Below are positions 4,242 through 38,514 of a stretch of 54,048 bases of DNA, piece by piece. Source of the DNA: a virus (lineage: Duplodnaviria; Caudoviricetes); the IMG/VR virus record IMGVR_UViG_3300018719_000034, positions 1-54,048 of that record; one strand, written 5' to 3'. A program made the translations under genes and the position numbers. Under the pieces are notes generated by a model. It saw only the letters and a program-made list of their open reading frames with translations. It made no database searches and was not told where the DNA came from. How positions within the stretch are numbered: the first letter of the stretch is position 1; every line of letters begins with the position of its first letter.

Positions 4242-4319
4242 TGGTCGGAGCGGCGGGATTTGAACCCACGACCCCTAGTCCCCCAGACTAGTGCGCTAAC
4301 CGGGCTGCGCTACGCTCCG
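4242..4319 (-). tRNA. tRNA-Pro(GGG)
   Basis: CGGAGCG acceptor stem, CTAGT-CTGGGGG-ACTAG anticodon arm, GGTTCAAATCC T-arm, encoded CCA. Confidence 0.97.
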
Positions 4320-5510: not shown

Positions 5511-5642
5511 CCGGGATTTGAAGGAAGATAGCCCTACGTAGAAAGGCACCCCCGATGAGATGCGGGAGCGTATGAGCCAGTTTGCCCCCTTGAGTTTAAG
5601 CAAAAGGGCGACCAAAGCCGCCCTTCTTTTCTCGTTCGGAAA

Positions 5643-5969
5643 TTATCCGTAAGCAGCCATTCTCTCTTCAGGCTCATCGCCAATCGAGAGAGCCCTCCGC
5701 ACAACATCGGGCTCTTTATCGATAATGGAAAGAAGCACACGGGCTGGTCCCTCGGGGCGGCGATCCCCCTGCTCCCAATGACGCACTGCAGCTAGGCTGA
5801 ACCCAAAGCGAACGGCAAACTCACGCTGGGTCAGATCGAGCTTTCTACGAATAGCTCGCACATCGACGCTGTCGGGGACGCATACGCTGCGTTCCCGTAC
5901 GTTGGTCGCTTCTCCCCGGGCATGCGCAAGCGCCTCCTGTAGCCCAGCGATGATCTTGCGACCGCTCAT
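5643..5969 (-). CDS. higA: HigA-type XRE HTH antitoxin
   Basis: IRRKLDLTQREFA..FG....VRHWEQG.RRP.GPA; lies downstream of the toxin. Confidence 0.85.
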   Translation of the reverse strand: MSGRKIIAGLQEALAHARGEATNVRERSVCVPDSVDVRAIRRKLDLTQREFAVRFGFSLAAVRHWEQGDRRPEGPARVLLSIIDKEPDVVRRALSIGDEPEERMAAYG

Positions 5970-6014
5970 GACTCACCTCCTGTGTGACCTTCTTACTTTC
6001 TTACTTTTTACTCT

Positions 6015-6401
6015 TTACGCGCCTTTTCCGGTAACCAACCGGAGGGTGACCTTCAATTTCTCACGCACAATCTCATCAACGAGATCGCGCATGAGGCGTT
6101 TCTCCTTAGCGGTGAGATCAAGCTTCTCACCTTTTGCGTAAACCGCCAGGATGTAGACGGGCATGTTGAGATCTCTGAAGTAGTAGATCACACGTGCTCC
6201 GCCGCGCTTACCTTGGCCTCTCGCCGGCCATCGAAGTTTTCGAATGCCGCCAGTATCCGGGATGACCTTGCCAGACTCGGGGTAAACCGCGAGATGGTTG
6301 ATCAACTCTTCATATTCTTCCTGCGTGAAGACTGCATTTGCATCACGAATGCTGGCTTCAAGCTCTGCGATAGTTATGTTGTAGTTACACGCATTGAACA
6401 T
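6015..6401 (-). CDS. higB: RelE/HigB-family toxin
   Basis: P.SGKVIPDTGGIRKLRW...GKRGGARVIYY...YAKGEK.DL; start uncertain. Confidence 0.85.
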   Translation of the reverse strand: MFNACNYNITIAELEASIRDANAVFTQEEYEELINHLAVYPESGKVIPDTGGIRKLRWPARGQGKRGGARVIYYFRDLNMPVYILAVYAKGEKLDLTAKEKRLMRDLVDEIVREKLKVTLRLVTGKGA

Positions 6402-6543
6402 TTTTCTTGCTCTGCGAAGGTTGTCGGGTGCCGCCCCCAGCCCTCCTTCTGGTCCCAGTCCAACCGCAGGCAGCAATGTGTCACTACTCCATTGGAATAC
6501 CGAAAGCAACAAGAAAATGCGCCATTGGAATACTTGTTCCAGG

Positions 6544-6559
6544 TTAAAGCTAAGTTAAC
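6544..6559. promoter_or_regulatory. CtrA-binding consensus site
   Basis: TTAA-agctaag-TTAAC between divergent higBA and the 6584 gene. Confidence 0.55.
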
Positions 6560-6583
6560 GTCGCCCTGATACCCCCCCTCCTT

Positions 6584-6850
6584 ATGACCTACTCCCGCGA
6601 CACCACCGCCCTCTCTGAACTCACCGACCAGCCCGTCAACACCTGGTCTGAGGAATGGCGGATAGAGACTGAAGCCCGTGCCATCCTGAAGATGTCCAAG
6701 GACGAGCGGGACGCCTTCTTCAACGGGAGGAAGGATGCGGACGGGAAGACCATCGACCGGGGCGTAGTCGCCATTCGGGGCCTCACGTCTGCCGAGCAGA
6801 TCAAGGCGACCGTGGAGCGGCTGCAGGCCGCACATGCCCAGCGCTCATAA
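6584..6850 (+). CDS. hypothetical protein
   Basis: 88-aa ORF convergent with umuC. Confidence 0.65.
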   Translation: MTYSRDTTALSELTDQPVNTWSEEWRIETEARAILKMSKDERDAFFNGRKDADGKTIDRGVVAIRGLTSAEQIKATVERLQAAHAQRS

Positions 6851-6970
6851 TCAACGGGTTGGTCGACTATCCGACTGATCATGCGGGCTATCTAGCGTAA
6901 ACCTACTTCAACGGCCCTTTATCTGCCCCTACGGCCGTTCCCTTGAGAGCGCCATCGTGGCGCTTTTCTT

Positions 6971-8233
6971 TTAGGCCACGTGGGGAAGATCGGCCATCCT
7001 TGTCGTGTAGAGAGGCGAGCGGTTCTTGAACTTGGTCTCCCAGGGCTTCTTGATGCCGGCCGCTGCCAGGGTCACGGCGCCTCGACCGAACCGGGCATTG
7101 GCGGCATCCATGGCCGCCATGAGCCGCCCTCCCCGGTCCTGATCGAAGCCGCCAAAGAGCGCCCGCTGGGCCTTGTCCATCGCCACGAGATCGTCCGTCA
7201 CCACCCCGGCCTTGCAGTAATGGTATCCGTCCCGCCAGATCTGGCGCGCGCCAGCCTCGGCCGCCTTGACCAGAATGGTGGTGTCGTTGGTCGCCTCGAT
7301 CAGATGCACCGTCGTCGAGACGCTCCGCTGCGGCCGATCCGTGTCATGACCCGACGTGTGGTAGAAGACCGTAACATGATCGGTCCCGAGACCCTGCTTG
7401 CGCAGCTTCTCCGCGAGCCGGCTGGCATGGGAGGCGACAGCCTCCAGCATTTCCCGCAGCTCCGTGACTCGTCCGGCGAAGTGGCGCGTCACAGCGCATC
7501 CCTTCTGCTGAGGCGCGACGAGCTCCAGCGGTAGGCATGACGTGCCGCGCAACTCGTGCACGATCTTCTCGCCCACCACCGTCAGGAGCTGCCGCGCCTG
7601 GCGCAGGTCCATGTCCTTCAGGTCCGCCACGCTCTCCAGCCCCAAGCGATCGAGTTTCGCCGCGGACGCGCGACCGATCCCCCACACATCCTCGACAGGC
7701 CATCGGACCAGCCAATGGGCGCGGATATCCTCGTCGGTCAGATCACAGACCCCACCGAGTTCCGGCACGGCCTTGGCGATCCGGTTTGCGAGCTTCGCCA
7801 GCGTCTTGGTGGGGCCAATGCCGACACAAGTCGGAATGCCAACCCATTGCCTGACGGTCGAGCGCAGGTCGCGGGCGTAGGCAATCAGGTCCTTATGCTC
7901 GAACCCAGAGACATCGAGAAAGCTCTCGTCGATGGAATAGATCTCCACGTTCGGCGTGAACCGACGATAGACCTCGTTCATGCGCCAGCTCATGTCGCCA
8001 TAGAGCGTGTAGTTCGAGGAGAAGACCGCCACCCCTTCCCGCTTGCAGAGATCGCGGATTTTGAAGAAGGGCTCGCCCATGCGGATGCCGAGGGCCTTGG
8101 CTTCCGCCGTCCTGGCAACGGCGCAGCCATCGTTGTTCGACAGAACGATGACCGGCCGTCCCTCAAGACGAGGATCGAAGACCCGCTCGCACGAGCAATA
8201 GAACGAGTTGCCGTCGATGAGGGCGAAGGTCAT
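6971..8233 (-). CDS. umuC: Y-family DNA polymerase V catalytic subunit (UmuC-like)
   Basis: [45 protein letters not shown]-terminal SPLYTT. Confidence 0.95.
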
Positions 8234-27623: not shown

Positions 27624-27658
27624 AGCCTCCTCCTATAGAAGCTGTTCCTAGATGAAGG

Positions 27659-27710
27659 TGTGCGTCAGGCCGCTAGGAAACGGCTTTTCGGGAGCTACCC
27701 TAGACGCACA
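27659..27710 (-). ncRNA. C4-like antisense RNA
   Basis: Cloverleaf TGTGCGTC/GACGCACA closing GGG-TAGCT-CCC and GCCG-TTTCCTAG-CGGC; loop is complementary to CTAGGAA just before the downstream RBS. Confidence 0.7.
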
Positions 27711-34225: not shown

Positions 34226-34825
34226 GGTGCCTCTCGTTCAAAATGAGGAGCCATCCGGGGTGCGCGTCATAGAGAGGCGTGGACGGCTTTGTTAAGCGAC
34301 TTGTATAGAAAAGGCCCGGCTTCTATTCACATCCTAATCATGTGCATAGGGGCTTGGGCATCATGCCAGCAACAGTTCCCGGCGCATTGCCTGCTGGCTA
34401 TCGAGATGGAGCATGAACACCTGCTTCTTGCGCATCTCGGATAGTTGCAATTCGGTTTGGTTTTCCCTGAGTGTCTGGGTGAGGAAGCGGCGCAACTGAT
34501 CCATGGGATTACCCGAACAGAGAGCCAAGGATGAAGCCCGCAGCGAACAGGCCAACTAGCAGAAGCACGATCACTTCAGAGGCCATCTCTCTACCTCAGC
34601 CAGCCGTTTCGCTCGGCAATGGCCATCTGCACATAGATGCCGGGAGAAACCTCGACCATCACAGCCCCATCGAGTGTGCGGGTGTAACTTCTTCGCTTTG
34701 ACATTTGGGCATGAAAAAGCCCCTGTGCTCGCTTCGGGCAGAGTGCCGAAGGTACTGGCAGGGGCGGGTCCTAGAAACGCTAACGCACTCAGGGTGAAAT
34801 CACCGCCGAGCGCTATGTGAAGATA

Positions 34826-34854
34826 TAACTAGCGCATGAGCTATTCGGTTGCAA
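34826..34854 (-). promoter_or_regulatory. putative late promoter
   Basis: TTGCAA-N17-TAGTTA; a long hairpin plus TTTTT follows at about 34713-34766. Confidence 0.5.
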
Positions 34855-34856
34855 GT

Positions 34857-34887
34857 GAGAAGCGACAGGTTATCCCCATCGCCTCTC
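34857..34887 (-). terminator. stem-loop closing the pentamer array
   Basis: GAGAGGCGA...TCGCTTCTC inverted repeat directly downstream of the array. Confidence 0.5.
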
Positions 34888-34896
34888 TGCTGGCAT

Positions 34897-35151
34897 CAGC
34901 CGAGACCTAACTAGCCCTGCCAAAACAGAACCCGCCAGAACCTACCTCACCTGCCCCGCCCTGCCTTTCCCCGACCGACCTAACCCTGCCTTGCCTGCCA
35001 TGCCTGCCTCGCCTTGCCTCACGCGACCGTACCTCGCCATCCCCGGCCTTGCCTCACCACACCTGCCCTGCCGTGCCTCACCGCAACAGACCTGAACTAA
35101 ACACGCCTTGCCTGCCCAACCGTACCTCACCCCACCTAACCCAACCACGCC
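34897..35151 (-). repeat. GGY-NN pentamer array (candidate guide ncRNA)
   Basis: Manual parse: 47 pentamers (35 start GGY, 9 GTY, 3 other) in blocks of 7, 9, 11, 1, 8 and 11 separated by five GGCA tetramers; last two bases variable. Confidence 0.85.
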
Positions 35152-35159
35152 AATAGCCC

Positions 35160-35639
35160 TCATGCTGCCTTTTGCGGCTGCATGTTCTCGATAACAGCGA
35201 AGAGACGGGCGAACTCTACAAGTTCTGAATGCCTCTTGCGCCAATCCTGCAATTCCTTCCAGGCCTGTGCAAGGACCTGAGCCCGCAACTCGGCGTCAGA
35301 CATCGCGTGGACGACCGAAGTATATGAGCGGTCCTCATCACGCCGGACGTTGACGAACGCTCGGATTGGCTCCTTGCCTTGGTCTGTTTCGCCGTCGCCC
35401 ACCATCGTAATCATGCGGATGACATAGCCAGCCTGTGTGAGGCGGTACTGATGGGCGGCTTTCTTGTCGTTCCACTCAAAAGCAGGATGCAGCGGATTGT
35501 CTTTGTTCCGGGCCTCTTGAACCACATCCTCTTGCGTCAAACGCCCGTTGCGAGAGACGCGGATGCGTTCAAGCTCCTCACCAGCTGCTTGGGCGGGCAC
35601 CGGGACGCCCGCTTGTGGTTTCCAGAAGTAAGTTGTCAT
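35160..35639 (-). CDS. conserved hypothetical accessory protein of the Cas7-like cassette
   Basis: 159 aa; starts 2 nt after the upstream stop; PLHPAFEWND..AAHQYRL.QA motif. Confidence 0.8.
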   Translation of the reverse strand: MTTYFWKPQAGVPVPAQAAGEELERIRVSRNGRLTQEDVVQEARNKDNPLHPAFEWNDKKAAHQYRLTQAGYVIRMITMVGDGETDQGKEPIRAFVNVRRDEDRSYTSVVHAMSDAELRAQVLAQAWKELQDWRKRHSELVEFARLFAVIENMQPQKAA

Positions 35640-35641
35640 GA

Positions 35642-36277
35642 TTACACCTCCACTCCACTAGCGACATGGAAACGGCCATAGACGCCATCGCGTTCAGGCC
35701 GCCACTCTCCAACACCGACCGCAAAACCGGCCGTCTGGAACAGGTTCACCACTTGAGCCGCCGACATGACGTTGGCGTTGTATTTGACCGTAAGAATTGC
35801 CGACCACGGGTCGAACTCGCCGCGATATCGAAGATCAGCCGTTCCCATGCCGACGCGGGCAATGTCCTCGCGCATGGACGGAGGGGGCCCTTTGATCTCC
35901 ACGAACTCGCCCTCGACGTGAAACGCCTGACGAGCTGCCACCTTCGTGATTGAGCCAATGGAGGTGCAGGCAGTCACAGCGGCAGCCTTGAAGGCCACGG
36001 CAGGGAAGCCAAAGCGGCCCTTTTGCACGTCCTCTTCGCTCGGCTGATCCGGCATGCCGTCGAGCCAATACATGCTTTCCACGAAGTCGCGCCAAGGGTC
36101 TTTGGCCTCACGGCCTGCCGACGCCTTCTTGGTCTGTTTGGCGAGCATCTGCTCACGAGCCTTCTTGGAGAAGGCATGAACGATCAGCGGGCTATCCCCG
36201 ACGATGGGAATTTCGATGGTCTTGATAGCCAGAGGAGGCAACTCGATAGCGACGCTGGAACTTGACTTAGCAACCAT
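35642..36277 (-). CDS. stand-alone Cas7/RAMP-like protein
   Basis: 211 aa with AGGAG RBS; IVGDSPLIVH first strand, FPAVAFKAA helix, C-terminal Gly-rich loop GFAVGVGEWRP..G.YGRF; fold inferred from motif order. Confidence 0.7.
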   Translation of the reverse strand: MVAKSSSSVAIELPPLAIKTIEIPIVGDSPLIVHAFSKKAREQMLAKQTKKASAGREAKDPWRDFVESMYWLDGMPDQPSEEDVQKGRFGFPAVAFKAAAVTACTSIGSITKVAARQAFHVEGEFVEIKGPPPSMREDIARVGMGTADLRYRGEFDPWSAILTVKYNANVMSAAQVVNLFQTAGFAVGVGEWRPERDGVYGRFHVASGVEV

Positions 36278-36365: not shown

Positions 36366-36406
36366 AAATGATTGCCCTGAGTAAGCGTCCTGTGTACGAA
36401 GCGGCT

Positions 36407-36643
36407 ATGATTACGCCCGCTCAAATCCGCGCTGCCCGTGCCCTGCTCGGCTGGAAACAGACCGACCTAGCGGAAGCCTCTGGCGTGTCCGAGATGAGCG
36501 TGAAGAATATCGAGCGCGGCGCGTCCGACCCTCGCATGAGCACCCTTCGGGCCTTGCAGGAGGCGTTCGAGGCTCATGGGGTGATCTTCCTTGAGCCGGG
36601 AACGAACCGGGAGGGCGGCCATGGGGTGCGCTTCAAAGGCTGA
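36407..36643 (+). CDS. XRE-family HTH regulator
   Basis: ITPAQIRAARALLGWKQTDLAEASGVS...IERG..DPR. Confidence 0.9.
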   Translation: MITPAQIRAARALLGWKQTDLAEASGVSEMSVKNIERGASDPRMSTLRALQEAFEAHGVIFLEPGTNREGGHGVRFKG

Positions 36644-36646
36644 CCG

Positions 36647-37315
36647 CTACTCCGCCGCCTCCAGCCGCTGCAATTCCGTTGCCTTGATCTTCACCTTCGA
36701 TGCCCTGCCCATGATGTCGAGCACCACCTCCACCCTGCCCTTTGAGAGCATGGACACGACTTGTGCCTGAAGGTCTGCGAAGGCTCCGACAGTAAGCCGC
36801 ACGACCTCGCCAGGGTTGTACTGAGGGCCAACGTCCGGCAGGCGGGTGAAGTCGAACTCGCCGGCCAACTCCCGCTCAAGCAACCGCGTGAGCGGGCCTA
36901 CGGGCACCTCGACAGGCACCCCCTCGAAGCGGACCACCTTCTCGACACCGTCGACGCCCCGGAGATTGTAGAGATCCTGTCCGCCCTCATTCACGGGCCG
37001 CCCGTAATTCTTCAGACCAATGAACAAATATCTCGGGAACAAGGGCGACTCCCGGGCTTCCTTCTTGCGGGCGTGCACGACCCAGCGCTTGGTCTGTGGC
37101 AAGTAGGTCTGATACCCGGCACGACGGAGGCCGAGCTGCGCCCTCCTCTCGCACTTGGGATTGCAGACGACGACGAACCAGGTGAAGCCTTCGAAGGACT
37201 CCGGAGGCTCGTGGTTGATGGGCGGCACTTCCCGGAACTGAGATACCAGATCCGGGGCGAGCTGCATAAGCCCTTGGGCTTCGGCAGACAGTTGAAGGCG
37301 GGGGAGATTGGTCAT
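36647..37315 (-). CDS. NusG-like late antiterminator
   Basis: WFVV..NPKCE, PLFPRYLFI (NGN), GEVVRLTVGAFA (KOW); Q-equivalent position. Confidence 0.88.
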   Translation of the reverse strand: MTNLPRLQLSAEAQGLMQLAPDLVSQFREVPPINHEPPESFEGFTWFVVVCNPKCERRAQLGLRRAGYQTYLPQTKRWVVHARKKEARESPLFPRYLFIGLKNYGRPVNEGGQDLYNLRGVDGVEKVVRFEGVPVEVPVGPLTRLLERELAGEFDFTRLPDVGPQYNPGEVVRLTVGAFADLQAQVVSMLSKGRVEVVLDIMGRASKVKIKATELQRLEAAE

Positions 37316-38514
37316 TATTCGGCTGCCTGTAGCTGGGGGATGGAGATCAGGTCTTCGACGGCTTGGATGCGCTCGCCGATGAAACGCATGCAGGGGACGG
37401 CCATGGAGTTGCCGAGGGCCTTGTATCGGGGGCCATCGGGGGGCATGCCCTTGCGCCAGGGGGTCAGGGTGTAATCGTCGGGGAAGCCCTGAAGGCGCTC
37501 GCACTCGCGGGGAGTGAGACGACGGGCAGACGATCGAGCGAGCAGACCGATCGTCTGCCCGTCGGTGTCGAGCGGGCCAGTCATGTCGCCATACTGGCAG
37601 ACGTCAGACTGGCGGGCATCAAATGCATGCGCGATCAGGTTTTCATGGCTGTCCTGCGCCCTGCCGCGCAGAGTGCCGAAGCCTTCTTGCCAGAAGCCCG
37701 CGCCGGTTGTGTGGACGGGCACGAGAGGAGTGCCGCGCCCGGTGCCGTCCTCTGATGCGTCGAAGCCTTCACCGCGTAAGGAATGAGCGACGAGCGTCTC
37801 GGTCTCGTAGTCCTGCCGCCCCATGCCGCCCGCATTCAGGCAATGTGCCACATTGCCTGTCGAGGGGATCAAGTGCCCTGCCTGTCCTTGGTTGCCGTCT
37901 GCGCCACATGTTCCAACGCCGTTTGCAGTGAGGGCGGCAACTGCCTCCCGCGCTTTTCGGCTCGGCGCAGAATGCCCTTGCAGGCTGTGGCGCTCAAAAA
38001 GAACCGCTGCGGCAGGTCGCCAGTCTCCAAGATATCCGACAACGAAGACGCGACGGCGCCGCTGTGGAACTCCAAAGTACTGAGCGTCAAGCACTCGGTA
38101 GGCGAACCCATACCCGAGTTCGACCATGCCCCCGAGAATGGCACCAAAGTCCCGTCCTCCGTTCGATGACAGGACGCCGGGGACGTTCTCCCAAACCAGC
38201 CATCGGGGCCGTGTGCGGTCAGCCAGCCTAAGATACTCGAGCGCCAGGTTACCGCGCCCGTCTGCCAATCCGCCTCTGAGGCCCGCGACCGAGAAGGATT
38301 GGCAGGGAGTTCCGCCGACAAGAAGGTCAATTGCATCGTACTCGTCGCCTTTGATAGTGGTGAAGTCGCCGTGCAGCGGCACATGCGGGTAGTGGTGCTG
38401 AAGGACAGCGCGGGGGAACGCCTCGATCTCGCTGAAGAACGAGGGCTTCCATCCGAGAGGATGCCAAGCGACGGTTGCCGCTTCGATGCCGGAACAGACG
38501 GAACCGTACCTCAT
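37315..38514 (-). CDS. C5 cytosine DNA methyltransferase
   Basis: SVCSGI, GGTPCQSFS, WENVPG, PQRRRRVF, RRLTPRECERLQGFP, YKALGNS. Confidence 0.95.
   Translation of the reverse strand: MRYGSVCSGIEAATVAWHPLGWKPSFFSEIEAFPRAVLQHHYPHVPLHGDFTTIKGDEYDAIDLLVGGTPCQSFSVAGLRGGLADGRGNLALEYLRLADRTRPRWLVWENVPGVLSSNGGRDFGAILGGMVELGYGFAYRVLDAQYFGVPQRRRRVFVVGYLGDWRPAAAVLFERHSLQGHSAPSRKAREAVAALTANGVGTCGADGNQGQAGHLIPSTGNVAHCLNAGGMGRQDYETETLVAHSLRGEGFDASEDGTGRGTPLVPVHTTGAGFWQEGFGTLRGRAQDSHENLIAHAFDARQSDVCQYGDMTGPLDTDGQTIGLLARSSARRLTPRECERLQGFPDDYTLTPWRKGMPPDGPRYKALGNSMAVPCMRFIGERIQAVEDLISIPQLQAAE
37869..38336 (-). CDS. overlapping alternative-frame ORF, candidate methyltransferase beta subunit
   Basis: SSLSDILE..PQRFFLSATACKGILRRAEKRG..LP..L..AL, nested in the C5 MTase gene. 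Confidence 0.6.
   Translation of the reverse strand: MQLTFLSAELPANPSRSRASEADWQTGAVTWRSSILGWLTAHGPDGWFGRTSPASCHRTEDGTLVPFSGAWSNSGMGSPTECLTLSTLEFHSGAVASSLSDILETGDLPQRFFLSATACKGILRRAEKRGRQLPPSLQTALEHVAQTATKDRQGT

What the first reader, a model, noticed from the sequence alone, without database searches (positions are those of the whole stretch)
34897..35151. The pentamer array looks like an information-bearing code split into guide-sized blocks
Seen (minus strand): the first three bases of each pentamer are constrained (35/47 GGY, 9/47 GTY) and the last two vary. The 5-nt phase is broken five times, always by GGCA. NN strings per block: 35151-35117 GT,TG,TA,GG,GA,AC,TG; 35112-35068 AA,GT,TA,CA,CT,GC,GA,AC,AG; 35063-35009 GT,GA,AA,CG,AT,GA,AC,CG,GA,AA,GA; 35004-35000 AT; 34995-34956 AA,AG,TA,CG,GG,AA,AG,GG; 34951-34897 GA,AG,CT,GG,CT,TT,AG,TA,AG,TC,TG. 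A decaying microsatellite would not confine variation to two positions. Inference: GGCA marks processing or unit boundaries, giving about five guides with 14-22 informative nt each. If each NN is followed by one skipped target base, the 2+1 rhythm matches codon phase and would tolerate synonymous escape.
Basis: partly seen in the sequence, partly recalled or inferred. Interest (0 to 1): 0.88.

Follow-up and report, generated by a model that had tools for sequence, protein, structure and literature searches.

The report
Phage VIPR guide-RNA array, staggered form
The five-base repeat tract is the guide-RNA array of a prophage VIPR system, a CRISPR-like RNA-guided DNA-silencing system first described in 2026 preprints, and at least two of its guides match genes of a rival integrating phage, so it is real but already explained.

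Summary
On the minus strand, 35151-34897 holds 47 pentamers (35 GGY, 9 GTY, 3 other) and five GGCA tetramers.

In VIPR, a Cas7-like Vipr protein binds GGY/NN vrRNAs, and the NN pairs read DNA with one base skipped.

- The 211-aa gene 490 nt upstream is a Vipr homologue. A family profile hits the SUSP1 Vipr structure 36pp at E 4.3e-24, and the predicted fold matches Cas7.
- The GGCA breaks fit the paper's "staggered arrays", in which neighbouring vrRNAs overlap by 1 nt.
- With one skipped base, block 3 (22 nt) and block 2 (18 nt) each hit one IMG/VR contig exactly. Both hits are in frame, with the skipped base on the wobble position.
- The targets are a DUF927 primase/helicase gene and a small early gene of an integrase-bearing phage-like element.
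- Three guides of the closest relative hit the same element family (18/18, 18/18, 21/24). Skips of 0, 2 and 3 and permuted guides give background.
- The matches stop at the GGCA breaks: 97/100 NN bases match inside the blocks against 18/60 outside.

No RNA data exist for this locus. This scan has noted VIPR arrays on other DNA before: 66 notes in at least 59 genomes. I file it as a new member of a known kind.

The parts
35642..36277 (-). vipr: 211-aa Cas7/RAMP-like Vipr protein (phrog_4652)
   Evidence: A single-sequence search hits PDB 36pp_D 'SUSP1 Vipr protein' at E 9.5e-4. A profile of 40 homologues hits it at E 4.3e-24 over 175 of 197 profile positions. The AF2 model has pLDDT 92.3. The top Foldseek PDB hits are Cas7 of type VII, Cas7-11 and Csm3, at E about 1e-5. 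The five residues the cryo-EM preprint names as binding the two guanines and, in part, the pyrimidine of GGY (H17, R138, D177, W178, R179) align to H34, R152, E191, W192, R193 (alignments; R152 and R193 are invariant).
35160..35639 (-). vap-like accessory gene, 159 aa (phrog_15946), start 2 nt after the vipr stop
   Evidence: ORF; phrog_15946 at E 6.3e-22. Homologues sit beside vipr and the array in L009-L014, and 28 of 120 pattern-found loci have a profile hit. The AF2 model has pLDDT 91.3. Foldseek gives only weak matches (best E 1.3), mostly winged-helix DNA binders. Which of the published vap1-6 it is could not be determined.
35117..35151 (-). guide block 1: 7 GGYNN units (14 informative nt)
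   Evidence: Parses. No target found: exact or 1-mismatch search of 5 target-family records gave 0, and the local scan was at background.
35113..35116 (-). GGCA phase break 1
35068..35112 (-). guide block 2: 9 units (18 nt); target found
   Evidence: The one-base-skip pattern gives 1 exact hit in viral contigs, at L150:2919-2944. The hit is in frame in an 87-aa early gene (phrog_18541). The skip-2 control gave 0 hits. Skips 0, 2 and 3 gave at most 14/18 locally.
35064..35067 (-). GGCA phase break 2
35009..35063 (-). guide block 3: 11 units (22 nt); target found
   Evidence: The one-base-skip pattern gives 1 exact hit in viral contigs, at L149:5329-5360, and 0 in metagenome contigs. The hit is in frame at the start of the DUF927 domain of a primase/helicase-like gene. 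The skip-2 control gave 0 hits. Orthologous sites in four related elements match 21, 19, 17 and 18 of 22.
35005..35008 (-). GGCA phase break 3
35000..35004 (-). one-unit block (GGCAT) between two GGCA; too short to be a guide
   Evidence: One-unit blocks recur: 8 of 165 blocks between two GGCA.
34996..34999 (-). GGCA phase break 4
34956..34995 (-). guide block 5: 8 units (16 nt); the only block shared with relative L009
   Evidence: Alignment. The best skip-1 matches are 14/16 (L152:4334, not in wobble phase) and 13/16 in the window itself at 37023. Both are at or near the permutation maximum of 13, so no target is assigned.
34952..34955 (-). GGCA phase break 5
34897..34951 (-). guide block 6: 11 units, 5 of them GTY; its 3' part is conserved in L009
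   Evidence: No exact hit in viral contigs or metagenome contigs, and 0 hits with up to 3 mismatches in 5 target-family records.
34851..34890 (-). stem-loop closing the array (13 pairs, extended by 3 more across a 3-nt bulge)
   Evidence: RNA fold of 34700-34910: z-score -4.1, and 0 of 200 shuffles fold as well. L009 has a hairpin at the same place, and L010 and L011 have GC-rich hairpins straight after their arrays.
34714..34766 (-). GC-rich hairpin followed by UUUUU, terminator-like
   Evidence: Sequence, fold. The consensus scan did not call it.
36368..36643 (+). divergent XRE-type HTH gene next to vipr (neighbour; its role in the system is not shown)
   Evidence: Pfam HTH_3 at E 8.9e-12. 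It is 98% identical in L009 and 36% in L014.

Best explanation
The tract is the vrRNA array of a prophage VIPR (Viral Interference Programmable Repeat) locus: vipr (35642-36277), a vap-like gene (35160-35639), then a 255-nt 'staggered' array.

Inferred from the published mechanism: the array is transcribed on the minus strand. One Vipr protomer binds each pentamer and hides GGY. The exposed NN pairs read double-stranded DNA while skipping every third base. The bound filament then silences the target gene.

Shown here in silico: the GGCA tetramers delimit five guide-sized blocks of 7-11 units plus one single-unit block. Blocks 2 and 3 match, in codon phase, a small early gene and the DUF927 primase/helicase gene of an integrase-bearing phage-like element with HK97-type head genes. 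The likely role is therefore to silence a competing mobile element in the same host.
For: Protein:
- The family profile matches the SUSP1 Vipr structure at E 4.3e-24.
- The fold is Cas7-like.
- The residues that contact GGY are conserved.

Association of array and gene:
- 120 viral loci were found only by a 9-unit GGYNN DNA pattern.
- 89 of them have a Vipr profile hit.
- 77 of those have it within 500 nt of an array, and all 77 are on the same strand.

Code:
- Exact skip-1 hits for block 3 (22 nt) and block 2 (18 nt), one contig each.
- The same blocks at skip 2 give 0 and 0.
- Block 3 gives 0 hits in the larger metagenome collection, so such patterns do not occur freely.
- In 72,249 nt of target-family loci, guides of relative L009, which were not used to find those loci, match 18/18, 18/18 and 21/24 at skip 1 only.
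- Skips 0, 2 and 3 give at most 17/24 or 15/18.
- 30 permutations per guide give at most 18/24 or 15/18.
- All 5 strong hits lie on the sense strand starting at codon position 1.

Boundaries and turnover:
- 97/100 NN bases match inside the blocks against 18/60 outside.
- Only one block is shared with L009.
- No self-target in the window exceeds its permutation maximum (window guides).

Print: GGY/NN vrRNAs, the 1-nt skip, the wobble alignment and staggered arrays with 1-nt overlap (Results, Discussion, three Methods sections and figure legends read).
Against: - No RNA evidence: transcription, the ends at GGCA and RNP formation are all untested for this locus.
- Three of the five guide-sized blocks (1, 5, 6) have no target. 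Block 6 has 5 degenerate GTY units.
- The block 2 hit (18 nt) would not be convincing on its count alone. It rests on codon phase, the sharp boundaries, the element family and one skip-2 control.
- The large-database controls covered skip 2 only. Skips 0 and 3 were tested only locally, on loci that had been chosen through the skip-1 hits of the window guides. The L009 guides are independent of that choice.
- The window's Vipr is only distantly related to the tested SUSP1 protein (single-sequence E 9.5e-4).
- The preprint says the other two architectures it lists were confirmed by sRNA sequencing, but does not say this of staggered arrays.
- The host, and whether the target element lives in it, are unknown.
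Confidence: 0.93

Rival explanations
1. It is a VIPR-derived array that no longer works: a decaying or orphan remnant that keeps the repeat form but is not expressed or loaded.
For: Block 6 has 5 of 11 GTY units, and blocks 1, 5 and 6 have no target. No RNA run exists (one search says nothing either way).
Against: vipr and the vap-like gene are intact and tightly coupled. The residues that bind GGY are conserved. Two guides match targets perfectly over 18 and 22 informative bases, which decay would have eroded. Degenerate units inside L009 guide 2 (GTCTA, CGAAA, GTCCC) still sit in an 18/18 match.
Confidence: 0.05
2. It is a structural nucleic-acid element with no sequence information: G-rich DNA or RNA forming two-tetrad G-quadruplexes or R-loops, or a repeat array bound by a DNA-binding protein (iteron- or centromere-like).
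For: GC skew is strong, reaching -0.49 over the tract. The GG runs recur every 5 nt. The tract lies between an early-type module and the HNH/packaging side of the prophage.
Against: A purely structural element would not have NN strings that spell in-frame gene segments of another element at exactly one skip length. It would also not stop matching at the GGCA breaks.
Confidence: 0.01
3. It is a decaying microsatellite, or a translated Gly/Arg-rich low-complexity segment (ORF 34942-35244).
For: A 100-aa ORF covers most of the tract, and Tandem Repeats Finder reports short imperfect repeats there.
Against: Variation is confined to two of the five positions. The same architecture, with different NN strings, recurs next to vipr homologues in 77 of 120 pattern-found loci. 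The array of the closest relative has 4-5 stops in every frame. The ORF has no Pfam or PHROG hit.
Confidence: 0.01

Closest known systems
VIPR systems with staggered vrRNA arrays (bioRxiv 10.64898/2026.04.26.720920; main text and legend of fig. S18 read)
   Same: A vipr gene, an accessory gene and GGY/NN pentamer repeats. Adjacent vrRNAs share one base, which here reads as GGCA followed by the G of the next GGY. The system is phage- or provirus-borne, targets are read with a one-base skip, and the skipped base falls on the wobble position.
   Different: None that I could establish. The figure itself and the type table are not held, so I cannot say which of types I-VII this is, or whether GGCA is the junction shown there. 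The text says the hammerhead-ribozyme and single-vrRNA architectures were confirmed by sRNA sequencing, and does not say so for staggered arrays.
Type II VIPR of Escherichia phage SUSP1 and the Pseudomonas fulva prophage (same preprint; cryo-EM in 10.64898/2026.04.26.720927; PDB 36pp)
   Same: Homologous Vipr (profile E 4.3e-24). Residues that contact GGY are conserved. Guides of about 9-16 units there, 7-11 here. Targets lie in competing mobile elements. A small vap gene is adjacent.
   Different: SUSP1 vrRNAs are separate ~100-nt RNAs, each ending in an invariant structured 3' tail with a pseudoknot. Here the guides abut in one 255-nt tract, are separated only by GGCA, and share a single hairpin at the far end. 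D177 of SUSP1 is E191 here. The targets here are the replication, portal and early genes of an integrase-bearing phage-like element rather than a tail-only satellite or lysis-lysogeny regulators.
Class 1 CRISPR-Cas backbone (Cas7/Csm3/Cas7-11 on crRNA)
   Same: RAMP fold: the Foldseek top hits are Cas7 of type VII, Cas7-11 and Csm3. One protomer binds per RNA repeat unit and flips bases periodically (from the preprints).
   Different: The RNA period is 5 nt, of which three bases are hidden, rather than 6 nt with one flipped. Target reading is gapped. There is no repeat-spacer array (one search lists none). No cas family was hit in the 9 neighbouring ORFs scanned. The locus lies in a provirus.

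Membership tests
VIPR system | Vipr protein: a minimal RAMP (RRM core, G-loop, thumb) homologous to characterised Vipr | tested here: met
   Profile against PDB 36pp_D at E 4.3e-24, nearly full length. AF2 pLDDT 92.3. Foldseek hits Cas7-family chains at E about 1e-5, probability 1.00. The G-loop reads GVGEWRP, against GVGDWRP in SUSP1.
VIPR system | vrRNA locus: tandem GGY/NN (YNNGG) pentamers next to vipr, at least 4 units | tested here: met
   47 pentamers, 44 of them GGY or GTY, lying 490 nt downstream of vipr on the same strand.
VIPR system | Residues that bind the GGY bases (SUSP1 H17, R138, D177, W178, R179) | tested here: met
   They align to H34, R152, E191, W192, R193. R152 and R193 are invariant in 40 homologues. 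D to E at one position.
VIPR system | Target recognition by NN pairs with one skipped base, the skip falling on the wobble position | tested here: met
   In silico only. Two of the 5 guide-sized window blocks and 3 of 7 L009 blocks have matches of at least 87% at skip 1. Skips 0, 2 and 3 stayed within the range of the permuted guides (four of their entries reach 81-83% of short guides).
VIPR system | Accessory vap gene beside vipr | tested here: inconclusive
   A conserved 159-aa gene is coupled to vipr. Its fold resembles winged-helix proteins only weakly (best E 1.3). Identity with the published vap1-6 cannot be checked, because the supplements are closed and the profile hits no PDB entry.
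VIPR system | vrRNAs are expressed, processed and loaded on Vipr | not testable with these tools
   No RNA holder is listed for the locus.
VIPR staggered array | Adjacent vrRNAs overlap by 1 nt, with no tail or ribozyme between them | tested here: met
   All five phase breaks are GGCA followed directly by GG. GGCA makes up 237 of 361 tetramer breaks across 153 arrays. Target matches end at the breaks. RNA ends were not tested.
CRISPR-Cas | Array of identical direct repeats of about 23-50 nt separated by unique spacers, with cas1/cas2 or an effector module | tested here: not met
   The tandem-repeat scan of the whole window lists no such array. The 9 ORFs around the tract give no cas family in Pfam. 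PADLOC and NCBIfam give nothing for the two genes.

The most novel reading that the evidence does not exclude
In staggered arrays the four-base GGCA unit is itself the whole punctuation signal. It shifts the register by one base, so a Vipr filament ends there and the next one starts. Guide length would then be set without any structured tail, ribozyme or dedicated nuclease. The RNA might even act as one multi-guide particle, cut only by host RNases between filaments or not cut at all. That would be a tail-independent way of defining guides, and it has not been shown experimentally. The preprint text I read reports sRNA-seq confirmation only for the hammerhead-ribozyme and single-vrRNA architectures.
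Probability: 0.3. Interest if true: 0.5.

Novelty: new member of a known kind. Interest (0 to 1): 0.3.

Why it matters
VIPR is a very recent discovery, and its experiments come from a few type II, III and V systems expressed in E. coli. This locus is a tail-less staggered array from an uncultured provirus whose vipr relatives lie mostly in alphaproteobacterial genomes.

Its guides can be matched to natural targets purely in silico. Those matches independently reproduce the one-base-skip rule, the wobble alignment and the guide boundaries. They also point to a concrete conflict pair: a VIPR phage family against an integrase/DUF927/HK97-head element. A relative of each partner carries the same dataset number in its contig name (L009 and L152).

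The locus is a useful test case for how staggered arrays are processed. It is not a new kind of system.

Tried and rejected
- Rfam gave nothing for the tract. The gathering scan found only a tRNA and an int-alpA RNA elsewhere in the window. The E-value scan of 34400-35400 gave four hits, all far below their thresholds.
- blastn of 34600-35700 against GenBank phages found no match.
- Pfam, NCBIfam and PADLOC gave no family for either gene. PHROGs gave only families of unknown function.
- Before the PDB hit I considered several ideas from memory and then dropped them: a TRAP-like ring binding 5-nt repeats, CsrA or Hfq sponges, rut or anti-Rho elements tied to the NusG-like gene, Chi-like decoys near cos, switch-region-like R-loop or G-quadruplex tracts, and a frameshifted Gly/Arg tail. 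None predicts NN strings that spell foreign genes.
- Block 6 gave 0 exact hits in viral contigs and metagenome contigs. It also gave 0 hits with up to 3 mismatches in the five target-family records.
- Block 1 gave 0 hits with up to 1 mismatch in those five records.
- Block 5 reached only near-background matches.
- Block 3 gave 0 hits in metagenome contigs.
- For the vap-like protein, PDB phmmer gave only designed repeat proteins. The profile gave nothing below E 0.2. Foldseek gave nothing below E 1.
- Sequencing runs: no RNA holder is listed. Read laying was not called, because only DNA contigs were on offer.
- The VIPR type (I-VII) could not be assigned. The type tree, the locus table and fig. 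S18 are in supplements or images that are not held.

Full report
**The observation**

- The first three bases are GGY in 35 units, GTY in 9, and GGG, CGT or GGA in 3.
- Position 1 is G in 46 of 47 units.
- Positions 4 and 5 use all four bases.
- All five phase breaks are GGCA, and all six NN strings are as listed.

An independent dynamic-programming parse gives the same 52 units and the same ends.

Five phased GGY with at most one mismatch occur 15 times in the window, all inside the tract. Shuffles give a mean of 0.47, and none of 100 reaches 15.

The window is a complete IMG/VR provirus record.

**Context**

All genes named here lie on the minus strand unless stated.
- A NusG-like antiterminator gene (36647-37504) and a divergent XRE-type HTH gene on the plus strand (36368-36643) lie upstream.
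- A 211-aa gene (35642-36277, phrog_4652) follows.
- A 159-aa gene (35160-35639, phrog_15946) starts 2 nt after it.
- The array starts 8 nt after that gene's stop.
- A 16-pair hairpin follows the array (34851-34890; fold z-score -4.1), then a terminator-like hairpin with a U5 run.
- HNH endonuclease genes lie further downstream.

**Relatives**

Five of six viral contigs found through the 159-aa protein hold DNA downstream of it. Four of these (L009, L010, L011, L013) carry a GGYNN tract at the same place. The tracts differ in length (about 130 to over 800 nt) and in sequence, and they also contain GGCAGGY junctions.

I then scanned IMG/VR with nothing but nine phased GGYNN units.
- 89 of the 120 have a profile hit to the 211-aa family.
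- 77 of those have the hit within 500 nt of an array, and all 77 are on the array's strand.
- 28 of the 120 have a hit to the 159-aa family.
- 31 of the 120 have no hit. Several of these are short or end-truncated loci.

The repeat tract and the 211-aa gene therefore form a conserved pair.

**Identity of the system**

The 211-aa protein weakly hits PDB 36pp, 'SUSP1 Vipr protein' (E 9.5e-4). A profile of 40 homologues hits it at E 4.3e-24 over nearly the full length.

The AlphaFold model is confident (pLDDT 92.3). Its best solved-structure neighbours are Cas7 subunits of type VII, Cas7-11 and Csm3 (E about 1e-5, TM about 0.45). That fold library ends in April 2026 and does not contain 36pp.

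Three 2026 preprints describe VIPR. I read the following parts.
- 10.64898/2026.04.26.720920: outline, Results, Discussion, three Methods sections and figure legends.
- 10.64898/2026.04.26.720927: outline and one Results section.
- 10.64898/2026.10.15.759431: outline, Introduction and passages.

According to them:
- Vipr is a minimal RAMP.
- vrRNAs are 9-16 GGY/NN pentamers.
- One protomer binds one repeat and hides GGY.
- The NN pairs read double-stranded DNA with one base skipped.
- The skipped base usually falls on the wobble position.
- The natural targets are competing phages and satellites.

The five residues named as binding the two guanines and, in part, the pyrimidine of GGY (H17, R138, D177, W178, R179) align to H34, R152, E191, W192 and R193 of the window protein.

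The first preprint also lists 'staggered arrays with overlapping vrRNAs'. The legend of fig. S18 says that the vrRNAs derive from positions overlapping by 1 nt. GGCA followed by GG is what a terminal unit GGCAG sharing its last G with the next GGY looks like.

**Testing the code on this array**

The one-base-skip pattern of block 3 (22 specified bases) has exactly one match in IMG/VR, at L149:5329. It has none in the much larger metagenome collection.

Block 2 (18 bases) has one match, at L150:2919.

The same two blocks with two skipped bases give 0 and 0.

Both hits lie on the sense strand and start at codon position 1, so every skipped base is a wobble base.
- The block 3 site is at the start of the DUF927 domain of a primase/helicase-like gene.
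- The block 2 site is in an 87-aa early gene (phrog_18541).
- Both contigs belong to one kind of element, carrying an integrase, small early genes and a DUF927/primase gene. L150 also shows portal, protease, major head and head-tail adaptor genes.

**An independent test**

I fetched five relatives of the DUF927 target. I scanned 72,249 nt of target-family DNA with all guides of at least 7 units from the window and from its closest relative L009. The L009 guides had played no part in finding these loci.

At skip 1:
- L009 guide 2 matches 18/18, in a portal-like gene at L152:8973.
- L009 guide 5 matches 18/18, in the DUF927 gene of L151 and L152.
- L009 guide 4 matches 21/24, in the portal gene of L150.

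At skips 0, 2 and 3, no guide of either phage exceeds 17/24, 17/22 or 15/18. Thirty permutations of each guide at skip 1 give at most 18/24, 17/22 or 15/18.

The other seven guides stayed at or near background (window 1, 5, 6; L009 1, 3, 6, 7).

Orthologous sites show what the gap buys. The block 3 site keeps 21, 19, 17 and 18 of 22 NN bases in four diverged elements. The L009 guide 5 site keeps 18, 17, 17 and 16 of 18, despite many wobble differences.

**Boundaries**

In the five strong matches, 97 of 100 NN bases match inside the block. Only 18 of 60 match in the three units on either side, counting GGCA(G) as a unit. That is about the chance level. GGCA is therefore a non-pairing boundary.

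Across 153 arrays from 119 sources (7,327 units), 237 of 361 tetramers are GGCA. Of the 153 arrays, 54 have at least one GGCA. The 165 blocks lying between two GGCA have a median of 9 units, IQR 8-11.

**Turnover and self-targets**

L009's Vipr is 97% identical to the window's. Yet only block 5 and the 3' end of the array are shared, and the rest of the guides differ.

No window guide matches its own provirus above its permutation maximum. Blocks 1, 5 and 6 have no target.

**Limits**

- No RNA run holds the locus, so transcription, processing at GGCA and loading on Vipr are inferred from the preprints, not shown here.
- The vap-like protein folds confidently. It resembles winged-helix proteins only weakly, and I cannot equate it with the published vap1-6.
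- The VIPR type is not assigned.
- Supplements and figures of the preprints were not available and may already contain this clade.

**Verdict**

The system is already described, and this scan has already noted VIPR arrays on other DNA: 66 notes in at least 59 genomes. I file it as a new member of a known kind. It has some added value as a staggered-array example with identifiable natural targets.

Noticed in passing
window 27646-27710 (-): Rfam int-alpA RNA (RF02996), 50.6 bits against a gathering score of 35.8. The Rfam family assignment is the tested fact.
   Followed up: no
window 4245-4319 (-): tRNA gene, 61.7 bits, inside the provirus record. It may be an attachment-site tRNA or a phage tRNA.
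   Followed up: no
window 37023 (+), inside the NusG-like gene 36647-37504: Block 5 matches this site 13/16 at skip 1, and its L009 counterpart matches it 14/16. The permutation maximum is 13. This is the one guide conserved between the two phages. The evidence is too weak to call it a self-regulatory target.
   Followed up: partly
window 34811-34890 (-) and L009:2497-2613: The hairpin after the array is conserved between the window and L009, as is a block with TTGCAA, a short palindrome around CATGCGCTA and an AT-rich stretch. The inner guides, by contrast, are exchanged. The consensus promoter scan did not call a promoter here.
   Followed up: partly
31 of the 120 loci L015-L134 (listed): These GGYNN arrays have no Vipr profile hit in the DNA held. 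Some are truncated contigs. Others could be orphan vrRNA arrays of the kind the October 2026 preprint describes.
   Followed up: no
L149:5173-5721 and 5594-7027: The targeted DUF927 gene is split into two overlapping ORFs that cover the two halves of the domain. This is either a frameshift or an assembly error.
   Followed up: no
L080:1618-2328 and L062:670-1491: In these loci the array starts directly at the vipr stop codon, so that reading through the stop continues into a Gly/Arg-rich pseudo-ORF. Gene callers may over-extend vipr here.
   Followed up: no
window 35000-35004 (-): A single pentamer (GGCAT) lies between two GGCA breaks. One-unit blocks recur in the family: 8 of 165 blocks. Their meaning is unknown.
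   Followed up: partly
L009 and L152: The closest VIPR relative and a target element that matches its guides 2 and 5 at 18/18 carry the same dataset number in their contig names. This suggests that predator and prey co-occur.
   Followed up: partly
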